Shown piece by piece: positions 34,840-55,389 of a stretch of 64,000 nt of DNA (positions within the stretch are counted from its first letter, which is position 1; each line of letters begins with the position of its first letter). The notes under the pieces were generated by a model, which worked only from the letters and a program-made list of their open reading frames with translations, made no database searches and had not been told where the DNA came from. The DNA lies in assembly GCF_963921235.1 (NCBI RefSeq), contig NC_086097.1, positions 18,292,001 through 18,356,000 on the forward strand. The letters are read 5' to 3'. The position numbers and the translations under genes were made by a program. Source of the DNA: Mobula hypostoma (lineage: Eukaryota).

Positions 34840-35074
34840 TGGTGGTGGTGGTTGTCCGTCATGTCTGACGATGACAAGAAACTTGTGCGGGAGAGTTTTT
34901 AAAGTGGAAACGGTATTGCACTGGGGCAGTTCTACTCTCCTGATCTCAGTTTAGGTCCAATGGTACAAACTAGCACCTCAAACTGGGGTCTTCCTTGGTT
35001 GCAGTAGATGACCATAACTGCCTTCCTGTCCATTGGATCTCGCTGTAGCTCTTATCCACCCAGTCCGACTTCAT
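34840..35074 (-). mobile_element. 5'-truncated non-autonomous element related to 52496-53196
   Basis: Degenerate TSD gattaagtgtag (34828-34839) and gattaggtgtcg (35075-35086); (ACC)n tail; shares ordered motifs with the 52.5 kb element. Confidence 0.6.
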
Positions 35075-51900: not shown

Positions 51901-52503
51901 TTGGCCAGGTCCTCTGTCTGGACCAGATGCCTTTTGTGAATATACTCTCTTGAAGAATGCCTTCTAACATTGTCACAATAATTCTGTTATTATTCACAAT
52001 TTGTGTCCTAATATGACAGCTGAAAAATGTAACGCTGTGTGTTACCATTAGTGGGCCAATCGATAGGTTTGTATAAGTTCCCGTAAGTGCTACCTCACTG
52101 CTGATATTGGCCTGTTTATTCTAATTGGTTTCCAAATTCCATTAAAACAGCACTGAAAGGAATTAATATGTGAACTCTAATCTTGTGCAGCAGAGATTAA
52201 AACCATTAATGTTTTTTTGATAGAGAAGAGCATCTCTGTGTTACTTTTTTACAGGCAATTTATGGAGCAGCATTTAAGTGGAGGTGACATGGGAGAGAAA
52301 AAATAAAGCTCTTGCCTGAAGTAGCTCAGTGATATCATTAAAAATGAAATCACAGACCAATTATTTGCACTATGCCAGTGTTGCCTGCCTTGCATTTGTC
52401 AAGCTTAAGAGCAATCTGCTCTCTATTCAAACTTCCTGTGTGCTCAGAATGGGAAAGATTTTATATTTACGATTACACCAGTAAGACAGTAATGGGAGTG
52501 TAT

Positions 52504-52688
52504 GGGGTGTCAGGGAGGGGTAGCACCTCTGGTGGGGGAACATGTCGCGTCCTTTTCAGGGTGGTTAGTCCACCTTTGGTCCCCACCTGGCACTCAGCTC
52601 TCACCTGTGGCTCCCTGTAGCTGTTTGCATGCGACAGCGGCCACACCCTGGGCAATGGCTTCGACAAGCCGGCTAAACCAGGTGAGGG
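52504..52688 (+). ncRNA. Putative HDV-like (delta-class) self-cleaving ribozyme
   Basis: Manual fold gives P1 GGGGUGU/ACACCCU with G1.U wobble, P2 CUCACCUG/CAGGUGAG, P3 GGC/GCC, L3 UCCCUGU, P1.1 CC/GG, P4 GGCUU-cgac-AAGCC and J4/2 GGCUAA, all in the canonical order. Confidence 0.75.
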
Positions 52689-53010
52689 TAGCCGACGGGT
52701 CTCAAACCCTCGGTGAGGTAGGGAGTTGCCTATCCCAGCATGTGAAGACAGGCTCTGGCAGATTGAGCAGACGAGACCAATGGAAGGTCCAACGGTCAAG
52801 GAGGCGGTCTCTGCAAGCGTCGTGGAACGTGTAGAACAGGACAAGACACAGAAGATGTCCTGGTCATCCACTGCGCCCAGTCCCATCTCCAGCCGTCTAG
52901 ACTCTGTCTTGCCACTGGATCCAGATGGGAATTGGGAAGAGAGAGTGAGGCTGACGCTGCGCAGTTCTCCCTTACTTAAATCCAAATCACGCGCTAGTCT
53001 CGACACCATC

Positions 53011-53152
53011 AGCCAGCTGGTGGTGCAGTGACATCAGTGCCGGACACCAGGAGCGAAGGTTCCCAAGTTCAAATCCAGTCGAGCTGCTCCCAGGCATGCT
53101 TTTCATTCGTGCCGGGTTGAGTGTCAAGCTAGCAACTCAACCTCGTAAAGAG
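53011..53152 (+). mobile_element. tRNA-like Pol III module (SINE head) inside the ribozyme-bearing element
   Basis: A-box-like tggtgcagtg and B-box-like aagttcaaatcc at tRNA-like spacing. Confidence 0.6.
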
Positions 53153-54049
53153 TCCTAATGGTGTCGAGGTCTTCATTGATGGCGATGGACGAACCTTAAG
53201 ACAGTAATGGCAAGGGACAAAGATAAAGTAGGTGCAAAAGCTCTAAATTAGCCTGAAGTCTGTTTTAAGAAGTGATTCAGCAAAAGTCAATTAGAAACAG
53301 CCACTTGTTGATAAACCAGCCTTGACAATAGGAGACAATTAAGAAGGGGTTACAAAGGGAAGAATTAGGAAACTGAGAGCCTCCGCATAACACGATGTAT
53401 AGAGAGTCACCTGAAGCCAAAAAGGGAAATTGCAACAGGCTGGGAGAGTCAGAGTCATGGAAAAGTACATCACAGAAATAGAACCTTTGGCCCATCTAGT
53501 CTGTGCTGAGCCATTTAAGCTGCCTACCCCCATCGAACCGCACCAGCACTATAGCCCTCCATACCCATGCACCACTTTTGCTAGCAGCTCATTTCAAACC
53601 TTCATGAATCTCTGAGTGAAGAAGTTTCCCCTCATGTTCCCCTTAAACTTTTCAGCTTTCACCTGTAACCATGACCTCTTGTTGTAGTCCCACCCAAAGT
53701 CAGTGGAAAAAGCCTGCTTGCATTTACTCTATCTATACCCCTCATAATTTTGTATATCTCTGTCAAATCTCCTCACAATCTTCTACATTCCAAGGAATAA
53801 AGTCCCAACCTATTCAATTATTCCTTATAATTCAGGTCCAGACCCGGGAACATCCTTATAAATTTTCTCTGTACTCTTTCAACCTTATTTACATCTTTCC
53901 TGTAGGCAGGTGACCTAAACTGCACAGAATACTCCAAATTAGATCTCATCAACGTCTATTACAATTTCAACATAACATCCCATCTCTTGTGCTCAATATT
54001 TTGATTTTTGAAGGCCAAAAGCTTTCTTAATGACCCTGTTTATCTATAG

Positions 54050-54965
54050 ACGCAAACAACAGGAATTCTGCAGATGCTGGAAATTCAAGCAACACACATC
54101 AAAGTTGCTGGTGAACGCAGCAGGCCAGGCAGCATCTCCAGGAAGAGGTACAGTTTGCACTTATCCTTGTAAGCAGAACAAGTGCTACACATGCCCATAC
54201 ACTTCCTCCCTTACCACCATTCAGAGCCCCAAACAGTCCTTCCAGGTGAGGCGACACTTCACCTGTGAGTCGGTTGGGGTGATATACTGCATTCGGTGCT
54301 CCCGATGTGGCCTTCTATATATTGGCGAGACCCGACGCAGACTGGCAGACCTCTTTGCTGAACACCTACGCTCTGTCCGCCAGAGAAAGCAGGATCTCCC
54401 AGTGGCCACACATTTTAATTCCACATCCCATTCCCATCCTGACATGTCTATCCATGGCCTCCTCTACTGTAAAGATGAAGCCACACTCAGGTTGGAGGAA
54501 CAACACCTTATATTCCGTCTGGGTAGCCTCCAACCTGATGGCATGAACATCGACTTCTCTAACTTCCGCTAATGTCCCACCTCCCCCTCGTACCCCATCT
54601 GTTATTTATTTTTATACACACATTCTTTCTCTCACTCTCCTTTTTCTCCCTCTGTCCCTCTGAATATACCCTTTGCCCATCCTCTGGGTTCCCCCCCGCC
54701 CTTGTCTTTCTCCCCGGACCTCCTGTCCCATGATCCTCTCGTATCCCCTTTGCCAATCACCTGTCCAGCTCTTGGCTCCATCCCTCCCCGTCCTGTCTTC
54801 TCCTATCATTTTGGATCTCTCCCTCCCCCTCCCACTTACAAATCTCTTACTAACTCTTCCTTCGGTTAGTCTTGACGAAGGGTCTGGGCCTGAAACGTCG
54901 ACTGTACCTCTTCCTAGAGATGCTGCCTGGCCTGCTGCGTTCACCAGCAGCTTTGATGTGTGTTG
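54050..54965 (+). mobile_element. Penelope-like element: inverted terminal segment, GIY-YIG region and 3' terminal repeat
   Basis: 15-bp TSD cctgtttatctatag (54035-54049 and 54966-54980); 54078-54153 is the reverse complement of the 3' terminus. Confidence 0.92.
54155..54572 (+). pseudogene. Penelope GIY-YIG endonuclease domain (open frame, RT missing)
   Basis: C..NKCYTC...VIYCIRCSRCGLLYIGETRRRLADLFAEH...VATHFN...EQHLIFRLGSLQPDGMN. Confidence 0.92.
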
Positions 54966-55389
54966 CCTGTTTATCTATAGCACCATTTTCAACAAATTAT
55001 GGACCTGTATTCCCAGACTGCCTTGTTCTACCACATTCCTCAGTGTCCTACCACTCACTGCTGGTTGGTCCTACCAAAATGCAACACCTCACACTTGTCT
55101 GTATTAAATTCCATTCAATGAGGTTAAAGATTATAACATTGAAATTAAAAGGATAATACAGAAAGCAAAGAAAGTGCATGAAAAATATTTCCAAGGAAAC
55201 CTGGAACTATTTCCTAAGAACATAAGAGGCAAGAGAAAAAAATACCTGAGAAGGTTGAGGATGTAGGTAAAATTCATAATGAATATTTTCAATAAAGGAG
55301 GGTTGAAAATGCCACTGTTATAGTTAAGGAGGAAGTGTGGAAATTTTGGATGGGCAAATGAGACAAAAGAGGAAGTATTACAAAGTTTA

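What the first reader, a model, noticed from the sequence alone, without database searches (positions are those of the whole stretch)
52504..52688. Complete HDV-like self-cleaving ribozyme fold at the 5' end of a non-coding retroelement, with a hairpin inserted in L3
Seen in sequence: every element of the nested double pseudoknot is present in order. P1 5' GGGGUGU (52504-52510) pairs with ACACCCU (52643-52649) as 7 bp starting with a G.U wobble. P2 is CUCACCUG (52600-52607) with CAGGUGAG (52679-52686). P3 is GGC (52609-52611) with GCC (52640-52642). L3 is UCCCUGU (52612-52618), whose CC (52613-52614) can form P1.1 with GG (52650-52651). GCAAU then leads into P4 GGCUU-cgac-AAGCC, followed by GGCUAA with the candidate catalytic C at 52673. 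The ~85-nt J1/2 can fold on itself (GGUGGGG 52531-52537 with CCCCACC 52581-52587). Established knowledge: genomic HDV has GGGCAAC...GGCGAA and antigenomic HDV has GGCUAA at these positions, and HDV-like ribozymes process the 5' ends of R2, RTE and L1Tc/ingi retrotransposon RNAs. Inference: the two deviations (U52616, U52656) are both TpG and fit CpG decay. The ~19-nt hairpin GCUGU...ACAGC (52620-52638) at the 3' edge of L3 is atypical and may define a structural subclass. The predicted cut (52503/52504) lies 8 nt inside the TSD-defined 5' end.
Basis: partly seen in the sequence, partly recalled or inferred. Interest (0 to 1): 0.88.

Follow-up and report, generated by a model that had tools for sequence, protein, structure and literature searches.

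The report
Self-cutting RNA heading a fish-like SINE
A short non-coding jumping element, present in thousands of copies in this large vertebrate-type genome, begins with a well-preserved hepatitis-delta-type self-cutting RNA fold that most likely trims the element's own front end; this is a known trick of such elements, here with an unusual extra hairpin in the catalytic loop.

Summary
A post-hoc HDV descriptor hits this site once in the window, against 2 hits in 300 shuffles. The locus is one copy of a young non-autonomous non-LTR family A (1519 exact 29-mer hits). An older family B has 632 hits. A and B keep P1, P2, P3, the L3 letters U-CC-G, the L3 hairpin and GGCUAA unchanged. They differ where HDV-like ribozymes are known to vary, with compensating changes in P4 and the J1/2 rod. 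The HDV-like reading is therefore supported in silico.

Three details need correction. First, the P1 5' heptamer is duplicated (GGGGUGUAU GGGGUGUC). Copy ends and target-site duplications place the RNA 5' end at the first heptamer (46 of 49 copies). The likely cut is thus 52494/52495, not 52503/52504, and the second heptamer closes a P1.2-type helix.

No Rfam model matches, and no raw RNA reads were available. Cleavage is untested. I rate this a new variant of a known kind, of moderate interest.

The parts
52482..52495 (+). 5' copy of the target-site duplication TAAGACAGTAATG(G). The last G is ambiguous with the element's first G.
   Evidence: (family D14)
52495..52501 (+). First P1-type heptamer, GGAGUGU in this copy and GGGGUGU in the family majority. 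Proposed true P1 5' strand, with the cut predicted 5' of G52495. It is followed by the linker AU at 52502-52503.
52504..52514 (+). Positions 52505-52514 form the 5' strand of a 10-bp P1.2-type helix.
52515..52585 (+). Interior of the J1/2 domain, a rod-like hairpin. GGGG 52517-52520 pairs with CCCC 52581-52584, ACC 52525-52527 with GGU 52578-52580, and GGUGGG 52531-52536 with UCCACC 52569-52574.
52586..52595 (+). 3' strand of the P1.2-type helix, CCUGGCACUC. It is followed by the linker AGCU at 52596-52599.
52600..52607 (+). P2 5' strand CUCACCUG
52609..52611 (+). P3 5' strand GGC
52612..52619 (+). L3 5' segment UCCCUGUA (majority UCCCCGUA, family B UCCAAGUA). Contains the U20-like U52612, the P1.1 CC at 52613-52614 and the G25-like G52617.
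52620..52638 (+). Hairpin inserted in L3: GCUGU-UUGCAUGCG-ACAGC. The loop holds the palindrome GCAUGC. G52639 follows the hairpin.
52640..52642 (+). P3 3' strand GCC
52643..52649 (+). P1 3' strand ACACCCU (majority ACACCCC)
52650..52655 (+). P1.1 GG (52650-52651) and J1.1/4 GCAA (family B has UACA)
52656..52671 (+). P4: U/CGGCUU-CGAC-AAGCCG. Family B has CCGCUU-CGAC-AGGCGG.
52672..52678 (+). J4/2 GCUAAAC with the candidate catalytic C52673. G, C, U and the two following A are identical in 30 of 30 close copies.
52679..52686 (+). P2 3' strand CAGGUGAG
52687..53011 (+). Non-coding body shared with the ~565-nt family A. The part up to about 52874 is also shared with family B.
53012..53156 (+). 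145-nt module present in a composite subfamily only. It sits in the loop of the 3' hairpin CUCGACACCAUCA..UGGUGUCGAG and contains GTTCAAATCC.
53157..53196 (+). 3' end of the element, ...GAUGGACGAACCU. No triplet tail in this copy; standard copies end in (AAC)n or (AACC)n.
53197..53210 (+). 3' copy of the target-site duplication

Best explanation
The stretch is the 5'-terminal HDV-like (nested double-pseudoknot) self-cleaving ribozyme of a non-autonomous non-LTR retroelement.

Proposed mechanism (inferred):
- The element has no recognisable promoter of its own and is transcribed as part of longer host transcripts.
- The first ~190 nt fold. P1 forms between the first GGGGUGU heptamer and ACACCCC.
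- The second heptamer plus CAGG pairs with CCUGGCACUC just before P2. This closes a rod-like J1/2 domain (a P1.2-type 'pinch' helix).
- C52673 in GGCUAA acts as the general acid. The RNA is cut 5' of the first G, at 52494/52495 in this copy.
- The trimmed RNA is then copied into new sites by a partner LINE's reverse transcriptase. That enzyme would recognise the 3' hairpin and the triplet-repeat tail.

What is shown and what is not:
- Shown: the fold, its conservation pattern, and the position of the copies' 5' ends.
- Inferred: cleavage, its exact site, and the partner.

In this particular copy the first heptamer carries a G-to-A change.
For: 1. All helices and junction motifs are present in the right order. 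A post-hoc descriptor gives 1 hit in the window against 2 in 300 shuffles.
2. The family is large and young. The exact 29-mer has 1519 hits with 0 in the control, and 40 of 40 scored hits are 96-100% identical. The older family B has 632 hits at up to 2 mismatches, control 0, with 72-91% pairwise identity over aligned segments.
3. Between A and B the two heptamers, P2, P3, the L3 hairpin, P1', GG and GCUAAAC are the same. The differences fall at L3 positions 4-5 (CC versus AA), J1.1/4 (GCAA versus UACA), P4 and the J1/2 interior.
4. Double-sided changes in the 63-row alignment (48 A, 15 B):
   - P4: G-C in 41 rows versus C-G in 14.
   - J1/2 rod: G-C 46 versus A-U 11; A-U 44 versus G-C 11; C-G 38 versus U-A 13.
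   - Three wobble-compatible one-sided changes.
   - 63 cells changed on both sides, against a shuffled mean of 24 (0 of 500 shuffles reach it).
5. 5' ends in an unbiased sample of 49 distinct copies: 24 have an intact first unit, 10 have one substitution, 12 lack or differ in the first 1-3 letters, and 3 lack most of it.
6. TSDs: of 35 copies with a shared word of at least 9 nt, 13 end exactly at the first G and 27 end between 3 nt before and 4 nt after it. Family B copies also carry both units.
7. Constrained folding of the nested part favours 'first heptamer = P1 plus P1.2' over 'second heptamer = P1'. The values are -62.5 versus -51.6 kcal/mol for an A copy and -69.0 versus -56.4 for a B copy.
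8. Copy L080 is a snap-back product whose junction requires a cDNA 3' end that copied the first heptamer.
9. Literature:
   - HDV-like ribozymes cut the 5' ends of R2, R4/Dong and other non-LTR RNAs. Duplicated P1 strands are discussed as giving two possible cut sites and 5' extension of J1/2 (PMC3774820, abstract and sections 12, 16, 18).
   - A helix in J1/2 accelerates large HDV-like ribozymes about 1000-fold (PMC4908430, abstract and passages).
   - Use of such ribozymes by LINEs and non-autonomous SINEs is reviewed (PMC6765202, passages).
Against: - No Rfam family matches, at gathering score or at E up to 10. RF00094 finds nothing in the whole genome.
- The family majority closes P1 with G-C. 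For HDV itself a G1:U37 wobble is stated to be specifically required for full activity (PMC1874588, introduction passage).
- A 20-nt insertion in the catalytic loop L3 has no precedent in the papers I could search. It could be inactivating.
- P1, P2, P3 and the L3 hairpin show no family-level covariation. They simply do not vary, and the A/B comparison amounts to about one evolutionary contrast.
- Copies of a retroelement decay neutrally, so high pairing percentages within a family say little.
- G-to-A variants at positions 3 and 6 are commoner in the first heptamer (22 of 100 listed copies) than in the second (7 of 100). This could mean the second heptamer is the more constrained one.
- No RNA evidence for cleavage exists. 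Only assembled contigs were available. Two low-depth contigs from an RNA library run from unlike upstream sequence into the element.
- The window copy has an A-C mismatch in the proposed P1.
Confidence: 0.6

Rival explanations
1. The second heptamer (52504-52510) is P1, the cut is at 52503/52504, and the first unit GGGGUGUAU is only a 9-nt leader.
For: - In this copy the pairing is 7 of 7 with a G.U closing pair, against 6 of 7 for the first heptamer.
- The descriptor finds this register.
- The nucleotide at -1 would be U, the best -1 base for HDV (PMC1874588, abstract).
- The second heptamer varies less than the first, 7 versus 22 of 100 listed copies.
- In this copy the two conformers are nearly iso-energetic, -49.7 versus -50.8 kcal/mol.
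Against: - RNA cut there would lose the first unit. Yet 46 of 49 unbiased copies keep at least 6 nt of it.
- TSDs end at its first G.
- The older family B has the unit too.
- Only 3 of 49 copies start at or after the linker.
- In intact copies the competing P1.2 pairing makes the alternative 11-13 kcal/mol more stable.
Confidence: 0.15
2. The fold is a relic or a purely structural 5' module, for example a protein-binding or exonuclease-blocking pseudoknot, that no longer cuts. The precise 5' end comes from transcription starting at the first G.
For: - The majority has G-C instead of the wobble required in HDV (PMC1874588 passage).
- The insertion in L3 is unprecedented in my searches.
- No Rfam hit.
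- No RNA evidence of cutting.
- L1Tc combines an internal promoter with its ribozyme in the same 77 nt (PMC3383444, abstract in the listing).
Against: - The letters kept between families A and B are those needed for catalysis: U, CC and G of L3, and C of GGCUAA.
- The letters that changed are those known to be free (PMC3774820 section 16).
- P4 changed with compensation.
- The 5' end coincides with the start of a P1 strand.
- ARAGORN found no tRNA in 52400-53000. That does not exclude other promoter types.
Confidence: 0.17
3. Chance resemblance to the HDV fold in a GC-rich repeat.
For: The descriptor was written after seeing the site, and 2 of 300 shuffled windows also gave a hit.
Against: - The real site exceeds the descriptor, with an 8-bp P2, a 6-bp P4 and GCAA / GGCUAA junctions.
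- It lies exactly at the 5' end of a retroelement.
- It is kept between two families that differ by about 23% elsewhere.
Confidence: 0.03

Closest known systems
R2 / R4-clade 5' ribozymes and their non-autonomous SIDE derivatives (Eickbush and Eickbush; PMC3774820, PMC3414825)
   Same: - An HDV-like fold occupies the first ~180-200 nt of a non-LTR element.
- It has a long J1/2 (23 to over 700 nt in R2), a short P4 and active-site letters close to HDV.
- It cuts the element out of a co-transcript.
- Duplicated P1 strands with two possible cut sites are discussed.
- Non-coding derivatives ride on the same ribozyme.
   Different: - The copies here are dispersed, with 7-14-bp TSDs in varied sites, not in 28S rDNA.
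- They carry a triplet-repeat tail.
- L3 carries a hairpin.
- No autonomous partner was found.
- No sequence-level or model-level match was shown.
Large HDV-like ribozymes with a structured J1/2 (drz-Agam-2 type, linked to RTE elements; PMC4908430; Ruminski 2011 cited via PMC6765202, not read)
   Same: A helix (P1.2) closes the J1/2 insert next to P1 and P2. The ribozyme is associated with 5' ends of dispersed non-LTR elements that lack promoters.
   Different: - Here the P1.2 5' strand is a copy of the P1 strand itself, so two registers compete.
- L3 has an insertion.
- Activity is unknown.
L1Tc ribozyme and its non-autonomous NARTc/SIDER relatives in trypanosomatids (PMC3185411, PMC4035085)
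   Same: The HDV-like ribozyme occupies the very first nucleotides of both the autonomous and the short non-coding elements.
   Different: The L1Tc ribozyme is a minimal 77-nt form that doubles as a promoter. The host group is different and there is no sequence likeness.
Genomic and antigenomic HDV ribozymes
   Same: The helix order is the same. I recall those HDV letters and have not checked them against a record here.
   Different: - J1/2 is ~90 nt.
- L3 has a hairpin insertion.
- The family majority has a G-C closing pair.
- The setting is a retroelement, not a circular RNA.

Membership tests
HDV-like self-cleaving ribozymes (nested double pseudoknot) | Helices in the order P1-P2-P3-(L3)-P3'-P1'-P1.1-P4-P2', with P1' directly after P3' | tested here: met
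   All strands pair as required at the stated coordinates. The descriptor hit is unique in the window.
HDV-like self-cleaving ribozymes (nested double pseudoknot) | P1 of about 7 bp whose first nucleotide is G at the cut site | tested here: met
   GGGGUGU with ACACCCC/U. Two candidate 5' strands exist.
HDV-like self-cleaving ribozymes (nested double pseudoknot) | G.U wobble closing P1 at the cut site. This is required for full activity in HDV proper (PMC1874588 passage). I could not establish whether it defines the wider class. | tested here: inconclusive
   This copy has G.U. Most copies have G-C:
- C at 52649 in 22 of 30 close copies.
- T in 4 of 48 unbiased family A rows.
- C is the majority in the contigs.
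HDV-like self-cleaving ribozymes (nested double pseudoknot) | L3 carries U, CC (for P1.1 with GG after P1') and G at HDV spacing | tested here: met
   UCCCYGUA in family A and UCCAAGUA in family B. U, CC and G are identical in 30 of 30 close copies.
HDV-like self-cleaving ribozymes (nested double pseudoknot) | L3 is a simple closed loop of about 7-8 nt | tested here: not met
   A 19-nt hairpin plus one G lies between the eighth L3 letter and P3'. It is kept in both families.
HDV-like self-cleaving ribozymes (nested double pseudoknot) | Catalytic C in J4/2 | tested here: met
   C52673 in GGCUAA, identical in 30 of 30 close copies. The role is inferred from position only.
HDV-like self-cleaving ribozymes (nested double pseudoknot) | Site-specific self-cleavage that depends on divalent ions and on the catalytic C | not testable with these tools
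   No experiment was possible. The only runs available were contigs.
HDV-like self-cleaving ribozymes (nested double pseudoknot) | Match to curated covariance models (Rfam HDV-type families) | tested here: not met
   0 matches at gathering score. 0 HDV-type matches at E up to 10. RF00094 gave 0 matches in the genome. These models allow for neither the long J1/2 nor the L3 hairpin.
5'-terminal ribozymes of non-LTR retroelements (R2, RTE, Baggins, L1Tc and their non-coding derivatives) | The ribozyme starts at the element's first nucleotide, so the cut makes the element's 5' end | tested here: met
This holds for the first heptamer: 46 of 49 copies, and TSD ends in 27 of 35 within -3 to +4 nt.
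5'-terminal ribozymes of non-LTR retroelements (R2, RTE, Baggins, L1Tc and their non-coding derivatives) | Hallmarks of target-primed reverse transcription: TSDs, variable 5' ends, 3' tail | tested here: met
   TSDs of 7-14 nt, (AAC)n/(AACC)n tails, and small 5' truncations.
5'-terminal ribozymes of non-LTR retroelements (R2, RTE, Baggins, L1Tc and their non-coding derivatives) | An autonomous partner that shares the 5' ribozyme or the 3' end | tested here: inconclusive
   None was found in about 300 kb of fetched loci plus the window. A pattern search for a third continuation after the A/B breakpoint gave 22 hits, all variants or singletons.
Large HDV-like ribozymes with a P1.2 peripheral helix | A stable helix in J1/2 that brings the ends of P1 and P2 together | tested here: met
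   A 10-bp helix, 52505-52514 with 52586-52595, lies 2 nt after the first heptamer and 4 nt before P2. It is kept in family B with altered pairs. This is in silico only.

The most novel reading that the evidence does not exclude
The L3 hairpin turns the catalytic loop into a three-way junction and defines an active, undescribed structural subclass of HDV-like ribozymes. Current descriptors and Rfam models cannot see it, so similar ribozymes may head many vertebrate SINE/LINE families unnoticed. In addition, the duplicated P1 strand may work as a built-in conformational switch. It can pair either with P1' or in the P1.2 helix, and this would set whether and where the RNA is cut. The palindromic loop GCAUGC of the L3 hairpin could let two element RNAs pair.
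Probability: 0.3. Interest if true: 0.65.

Novelty: new variant of a known kind. Interest (0 to 1): 0.5.

Why it matters
If the ribozyme is active, HDV-like 5' processing would be in use by a very abundant non-coding retroelement in a large vertebrate-type genome. HDV-type ribozymes are otherwise known there mainly from CPEB3 and a few repeats.

It would also show that the catalytic loop L3 tolerates a whole helix at its 3' side. That would widen the search descriptors for this ribozyme class.

The thousands of naturally mutated copies, two families of different age and the duplicated P1 strand form a ready-made data set. It could test the Eickbush model of how cut sites shift and J1/2 domains grow.

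If the ribozyme is inactive, the element is an ordinary SINE-like repeat with a fossil ribozyme.

Tried and rejected
- Rfam scans of the window at gathering score, of 52300-53300 and of 52590-52700 at E up to 10: no HDV-type match. RF00094 on the whole genome: 0 matches, 84 of about 46,579 first-look candidates scored.
- Sequencing runs: 24 runs, all kept as contigs, 2 on record as RNA. Laying X1, X17, X10 and X19 could not show RNA starts, as table 6 was empty. The two RNA-library contigs of X17 (depth about 2) run on into unlike upstream sequence. This shows neither cleavage nor its absence.
- Partner LINE. BLAST of the 3' parts of A and B against all fetched loci and the window gave only element fragments. 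The pattern TCMTGGTCATCCACTGCY... for a third continuation gave 22 hits and no recurrent new sequence. ORFs near the family B fragment at 34845-35040 showed nothing LINE-like.
- ARAGORN found no tRNA in 52400-53300. The bacterial promoter and terminator scan found nothing and does not apply to this organism.
- Subfamily test. I asked whether first-heptamer variants travel with other diagnostic sites in 76 copies. It was inconclusive because nearly all informative columns are recurrent CpG changes.
- I first took 53012-53156 for a private insertion. That is rejected. A second copy, L111, has the same architecture and its own TSD.
- One search used a mis-designed pattern that could match family B only (0 hits). 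One search is the corrected count.
- Papers not obtainable: Ruminski 2011, Perrotta and Been 1996, and the supplements of PMC3774820, which list P1 and L3 of 18 R2 ribozymes. These could settle whether G-C closing pairs or long L3 loops occur in active relatives.
- The search of earlier findings holds nothing for this genome or sequence.
Full report
What is in the sequence

- P1 GGGGUGU 52504-52510 with ACACCCU 52643-52649: 7 pairs, the first G.U.
- P2 52600-52607 with 52679-52686: 8 pairs.
- P3 GGC with GCC.
- P1.1 CC 52613-52614 with GG 52650-52651.
- The hairpin GCUGU...ACAGC at 52620-52638.
- P4 52657-52661 with 52666-52670, extendable by U52656.G52671.
- J4/2 GGCUAAAC with C52673.

A 14-nt direct repeat, TAAGACAGTAATGG, flanks the element at 52482-52495 and 53197-53210.

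I wrote a descriptor after seeing the site, so it is post hoc. It finds this site and no other in the 64-kb window on either strand. It finds 2 sites in 300 dinucleotide-preserving shuffles. The plain minimum-free-energy fold is not unusual (z = -0.39). It nevertheless recovers P2, P4 and the L3 hairpin.

No Rfam family matches at gathering score or at E up to 10. RF00094 finds nothing in the whole genome.

What the element is

The window lies in a 3.48-Gb assembly of 200 contigs.
- Family A. The first 211 nt have about 2761 first-look candidates, and 40 of 40 scored hits are 96-100% identical. An exact 29-mer from the 5' end occurs 1519 times, with 0 in the reversed control. Standard copies are about 565 nt. 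They have no long ORF that I could see, end in a 3' hairpin followed by ...GAUGGACGAAC and an (AAC)n or (AACC)n tail, and are flanked by TSDs of 7-14 nt.
- The window copy. It shares positions 1-517 with these copies. It then carries a 145-nt module (53012-53156) in the loop of the 3' hairpin. I first read this as a private insertion. However, a second copy on another contig (L111) has the same ~700-nt architecture and its own TSD. It is therefore a composite subfamily.
- Family B. Loose ends in the laid contigs pointed to an older family, which I fetched by pattern: 632 hits at up to 2 mismatches, control 0. B copies are about 540 nt and 72-91% identical to each other over aligned segments. 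They share the first ~380 nt with A at about 77% identity and then differ. A 5'-truncated B copy lies in the window at 34845-35040 on the minus strand.
- No autonomous partner was found.

Does the conservation pattern fit a ribozyme?

Copies of one family decay neutrally, so the useful contrast is A against B. In the 63-row alignment of 48 unbiased A copies and 15 B copies, the following are the same in both families:
- the two 5' heptamers;
- P2 and P3;
- the L3 letters U, CC and G;
- the L3 hairpin;
- P1', the following GG, and GCUAAAC.

The differences are these:
- L3 positions 4-5: CC in A, AA in B.
- J1.1/4: GCAA versus UACA.
- P4: CGGCUU-CGAC-AAGCCG versus CCGCUU-CGAC-AGGCGG.
- The interior of J1/2.

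The R2 study describes the same places as free to vary. In R2 only the catalytic C and four other positions are rigidly kept, and the L3 G is needed for activity (PMC3774820, sections 12 and 16).

Pair counts:
- P4: G-C in 41 rows against C-G in 14.
- J1/2 rod: G-C 46 against A-U 11; A-U 44 against G-C 11; C-G 38 against U-A 13.
- Three one-sided changes keep a wobble.
- Cells changed on both sides number 63, against a shuffled mean of 24 (0 of 500 shuffles reach it). Slid controls give 16-39.

Each of these is in effect one event on one branch, so the support is real but thin. P1, P2, P3 and the L3 hairpin never vary between the families. That speaks for constraint but not for pairing as such.

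Where is the cut?

The 5' end of the family reads GGGGUGUAU GGGGUGUCAGGG, so the P1 5' strand is present twice, 9 nt apart. The evidence points to the first.
- Copy ends. I took the first 50 places of the exact 29-mer in contig order, without regard to what lies upstream. They represent 49 distinct insertions. Of these, 24 have the first unit intact, 10 have it with one substitution, 12 lack or differ in its first 1-3 letters, and only 3 start at or after the linker.
- TSDs. Of 56 distinct copies with 3-kb context, 5 had no recognisable 3' end and 6 had no shared word of at least 7 nt. Of the 35 with a shared word of at least 9 nt, 13 end exactly at the first G of the first unit and 27 end between 3 nt before and 4 nt after it.
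- Family B. It carries both units too, so the duplication has been inherited for a long time. RNA cut at the second heptamer would have lost the first unit.
- Three-unit copies are rare: 9 exact hits genome-wide.
- Copy L080. It joins the reverse complement of the ribozyme's 3' half, at P1', to the first heptamer. This is what a first-strand cDNA ending in the complement of the first heptamer would produce if it folded back on the internal GGGGTGT and primed on itself.

The second heptamer has another partner. GGGUGUCAGG (52505-52514) pairs over 10 bp with CCUGGCACUC (52586-52595). This helix lies 2 nt after the first heptamer and 4 nt before P2. In family B it is kept with U.G changed to U-A, and with A-U replaced by C-G beside a bulged A. 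It would close the J1/2 domain into a rod.

[quoted passage not shown] With P2 and L3 held open, 'first heptamer = P1 plus P1.2' is more stable than 'second heptamer = P1'. The values are -62.5 against -51.6 kcal/mol for an A copy and -69.0 against -56.4 for a B copy.

The R2 study describes the same situation. A duplicated P1 gives two possible cut sites, cutting at the inner one removes the duplication, and a fixed duplication extends the 5' end and enlarges J1/2 (PMC3774820, section 18).

In the window copy the first heptamer is GGAGUGU, with an A-C mismatch at position 3. The two conformers are nearly equal here, -50.8 against -49.7 kcal/mol.

Points against, or unexplained

- The G.U wobble. 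C stands at 52649 in 22 of 30 close copies, T occurs in only 4 of 48 unbiased A rows, and C is the majority in the contigs. The source elements therefore had G-C. For HDV itself the wobble is stated to be specifically required, with changes to either base lowering activity (PMC1874588, introduction passage). I could not find out whether active HDV-like ribozymes with G-C exist. The supplement that lists R2 P1 strands was unreadable, and two key papers were not held.
- The L3 hairpin. The insertion lies after the eighth L3 letter. I recall that the corresponding U27 of the genomic HDV ribozyme can be deleted without loss of activity, which would make this a tolerant spot. My searches found no natural HDV-like ribozyme with a helix in L3. 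An unchecked note of this scan mentions a phage HDV-like ribozyme with a large insertion in a core loop (e1-5805702).
- Heptamer variants. Among the first 100 of 957 pattern hits, G-to-A at positions 3 or 6 occurs in 22 first heptamers and 7 second heptamers. I could not tell whether these are subfamily markers or recurrent changes.
- No RNA evidence. All 24 runs were kept as contigs, and no starts could be read.

- U52616 and U52656 are indeed CpG decay products.
- The J1/2 pairing that shows covariation is GGUGGG 52531-52536 with UCCACC 52569-52574, and GGGG 52517-52520 with CCCC 52581-52584. It is not GGUGGGG with CCCCACC, although that pairing is possible.

Comparison and verdict

The element works like the 5' ribozymes of R2/R4, RTE, Baggins and L1Tc and their non-coding riders (SIDE, NARTc). 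[quoted passage not shown] Membership in the HDV-like class is met for helix order, P1, the L3 letters, P1.1 and the catalytic C. It is not met for a simple L3 loop or for any curated model. It is open for the closing wobble and for activity.

I file it as a new variant of a known kind. The fold is very probably a true HDV-type ribozyme (about 0.75). The full statement, including the cut at 52494/52495, has confidence 0.6.

Noticed in passing
L080:1340-1600 (minus strand of the locus): A family A copy whose upstream side is the reverse complement of the ribozyme's own 3' half (P2'-J4/2-P4-J1.1/4), joined exactly at P1' to the first heptamer. This looks like a snap-back of the first-strand cDNA on the DNA version of the P1 helix.
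   Followed up: partly
window 53012-53156; L111: A 145-nt module containing GTTCAAATCC sits in the loop of the element's 3' hairpin in a composite ~700-nt subfamily. Two copies with separate TSDs were seen. The module alone has about 4971 first-look candidates in the genome, so it is shared with another abundant repeat.
   Followed up: partly
window 52625-52633: The loop of the L3 hairpin, UUGCAUGCG, contains the self-complementary hexamer GCAUGC. It is kept in family A, and in the family B copies that have not lost the CpG. It could allow loop-loop pairing of two RNAs.
   Followed up: no
window 34845-35040, minus strand: A 5'-truncated copy of family B (last ~190 nt) ending in ...GACGGACAACCACCACCACCAC.
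   Followed up: partly
first heptamer of family A copies (window 52495-52501): G-to-A at positions 3 and 6 of the first heptamer is frequent: 6 and 16 of 100 listed copies. The same positions of the second heptamer show 3 and 4 of 100. These are not CpG sites. The cause (subfamily markers or a recurrent change at the cDNA 3' end) is unknown.
   Followed up: partly
flank base before the first G in 24 copies with an intact first unit (L063-L110): The base at -1 is T in 18, A in 5 and C in 1 (one of the T is the snap-back copy L080). This may reflect target-site choice. U is also the best -1 base for HDV cleavage.
   Followed up: no
window 52660 (P4), run X10: In the contigs of a more distant organism (D), T52660 is C in most of the depth (37.3 of 45.9). 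Whether its partner A52667 also changes was not shown in the truncated table.
   Followed up: no
window 54086-54154 and 54901-54969: 69-nt inverted repeats, 96% complementary, enclose about 750 nt. They look like the ends of another mobile element just downstream.
   Followed up: no
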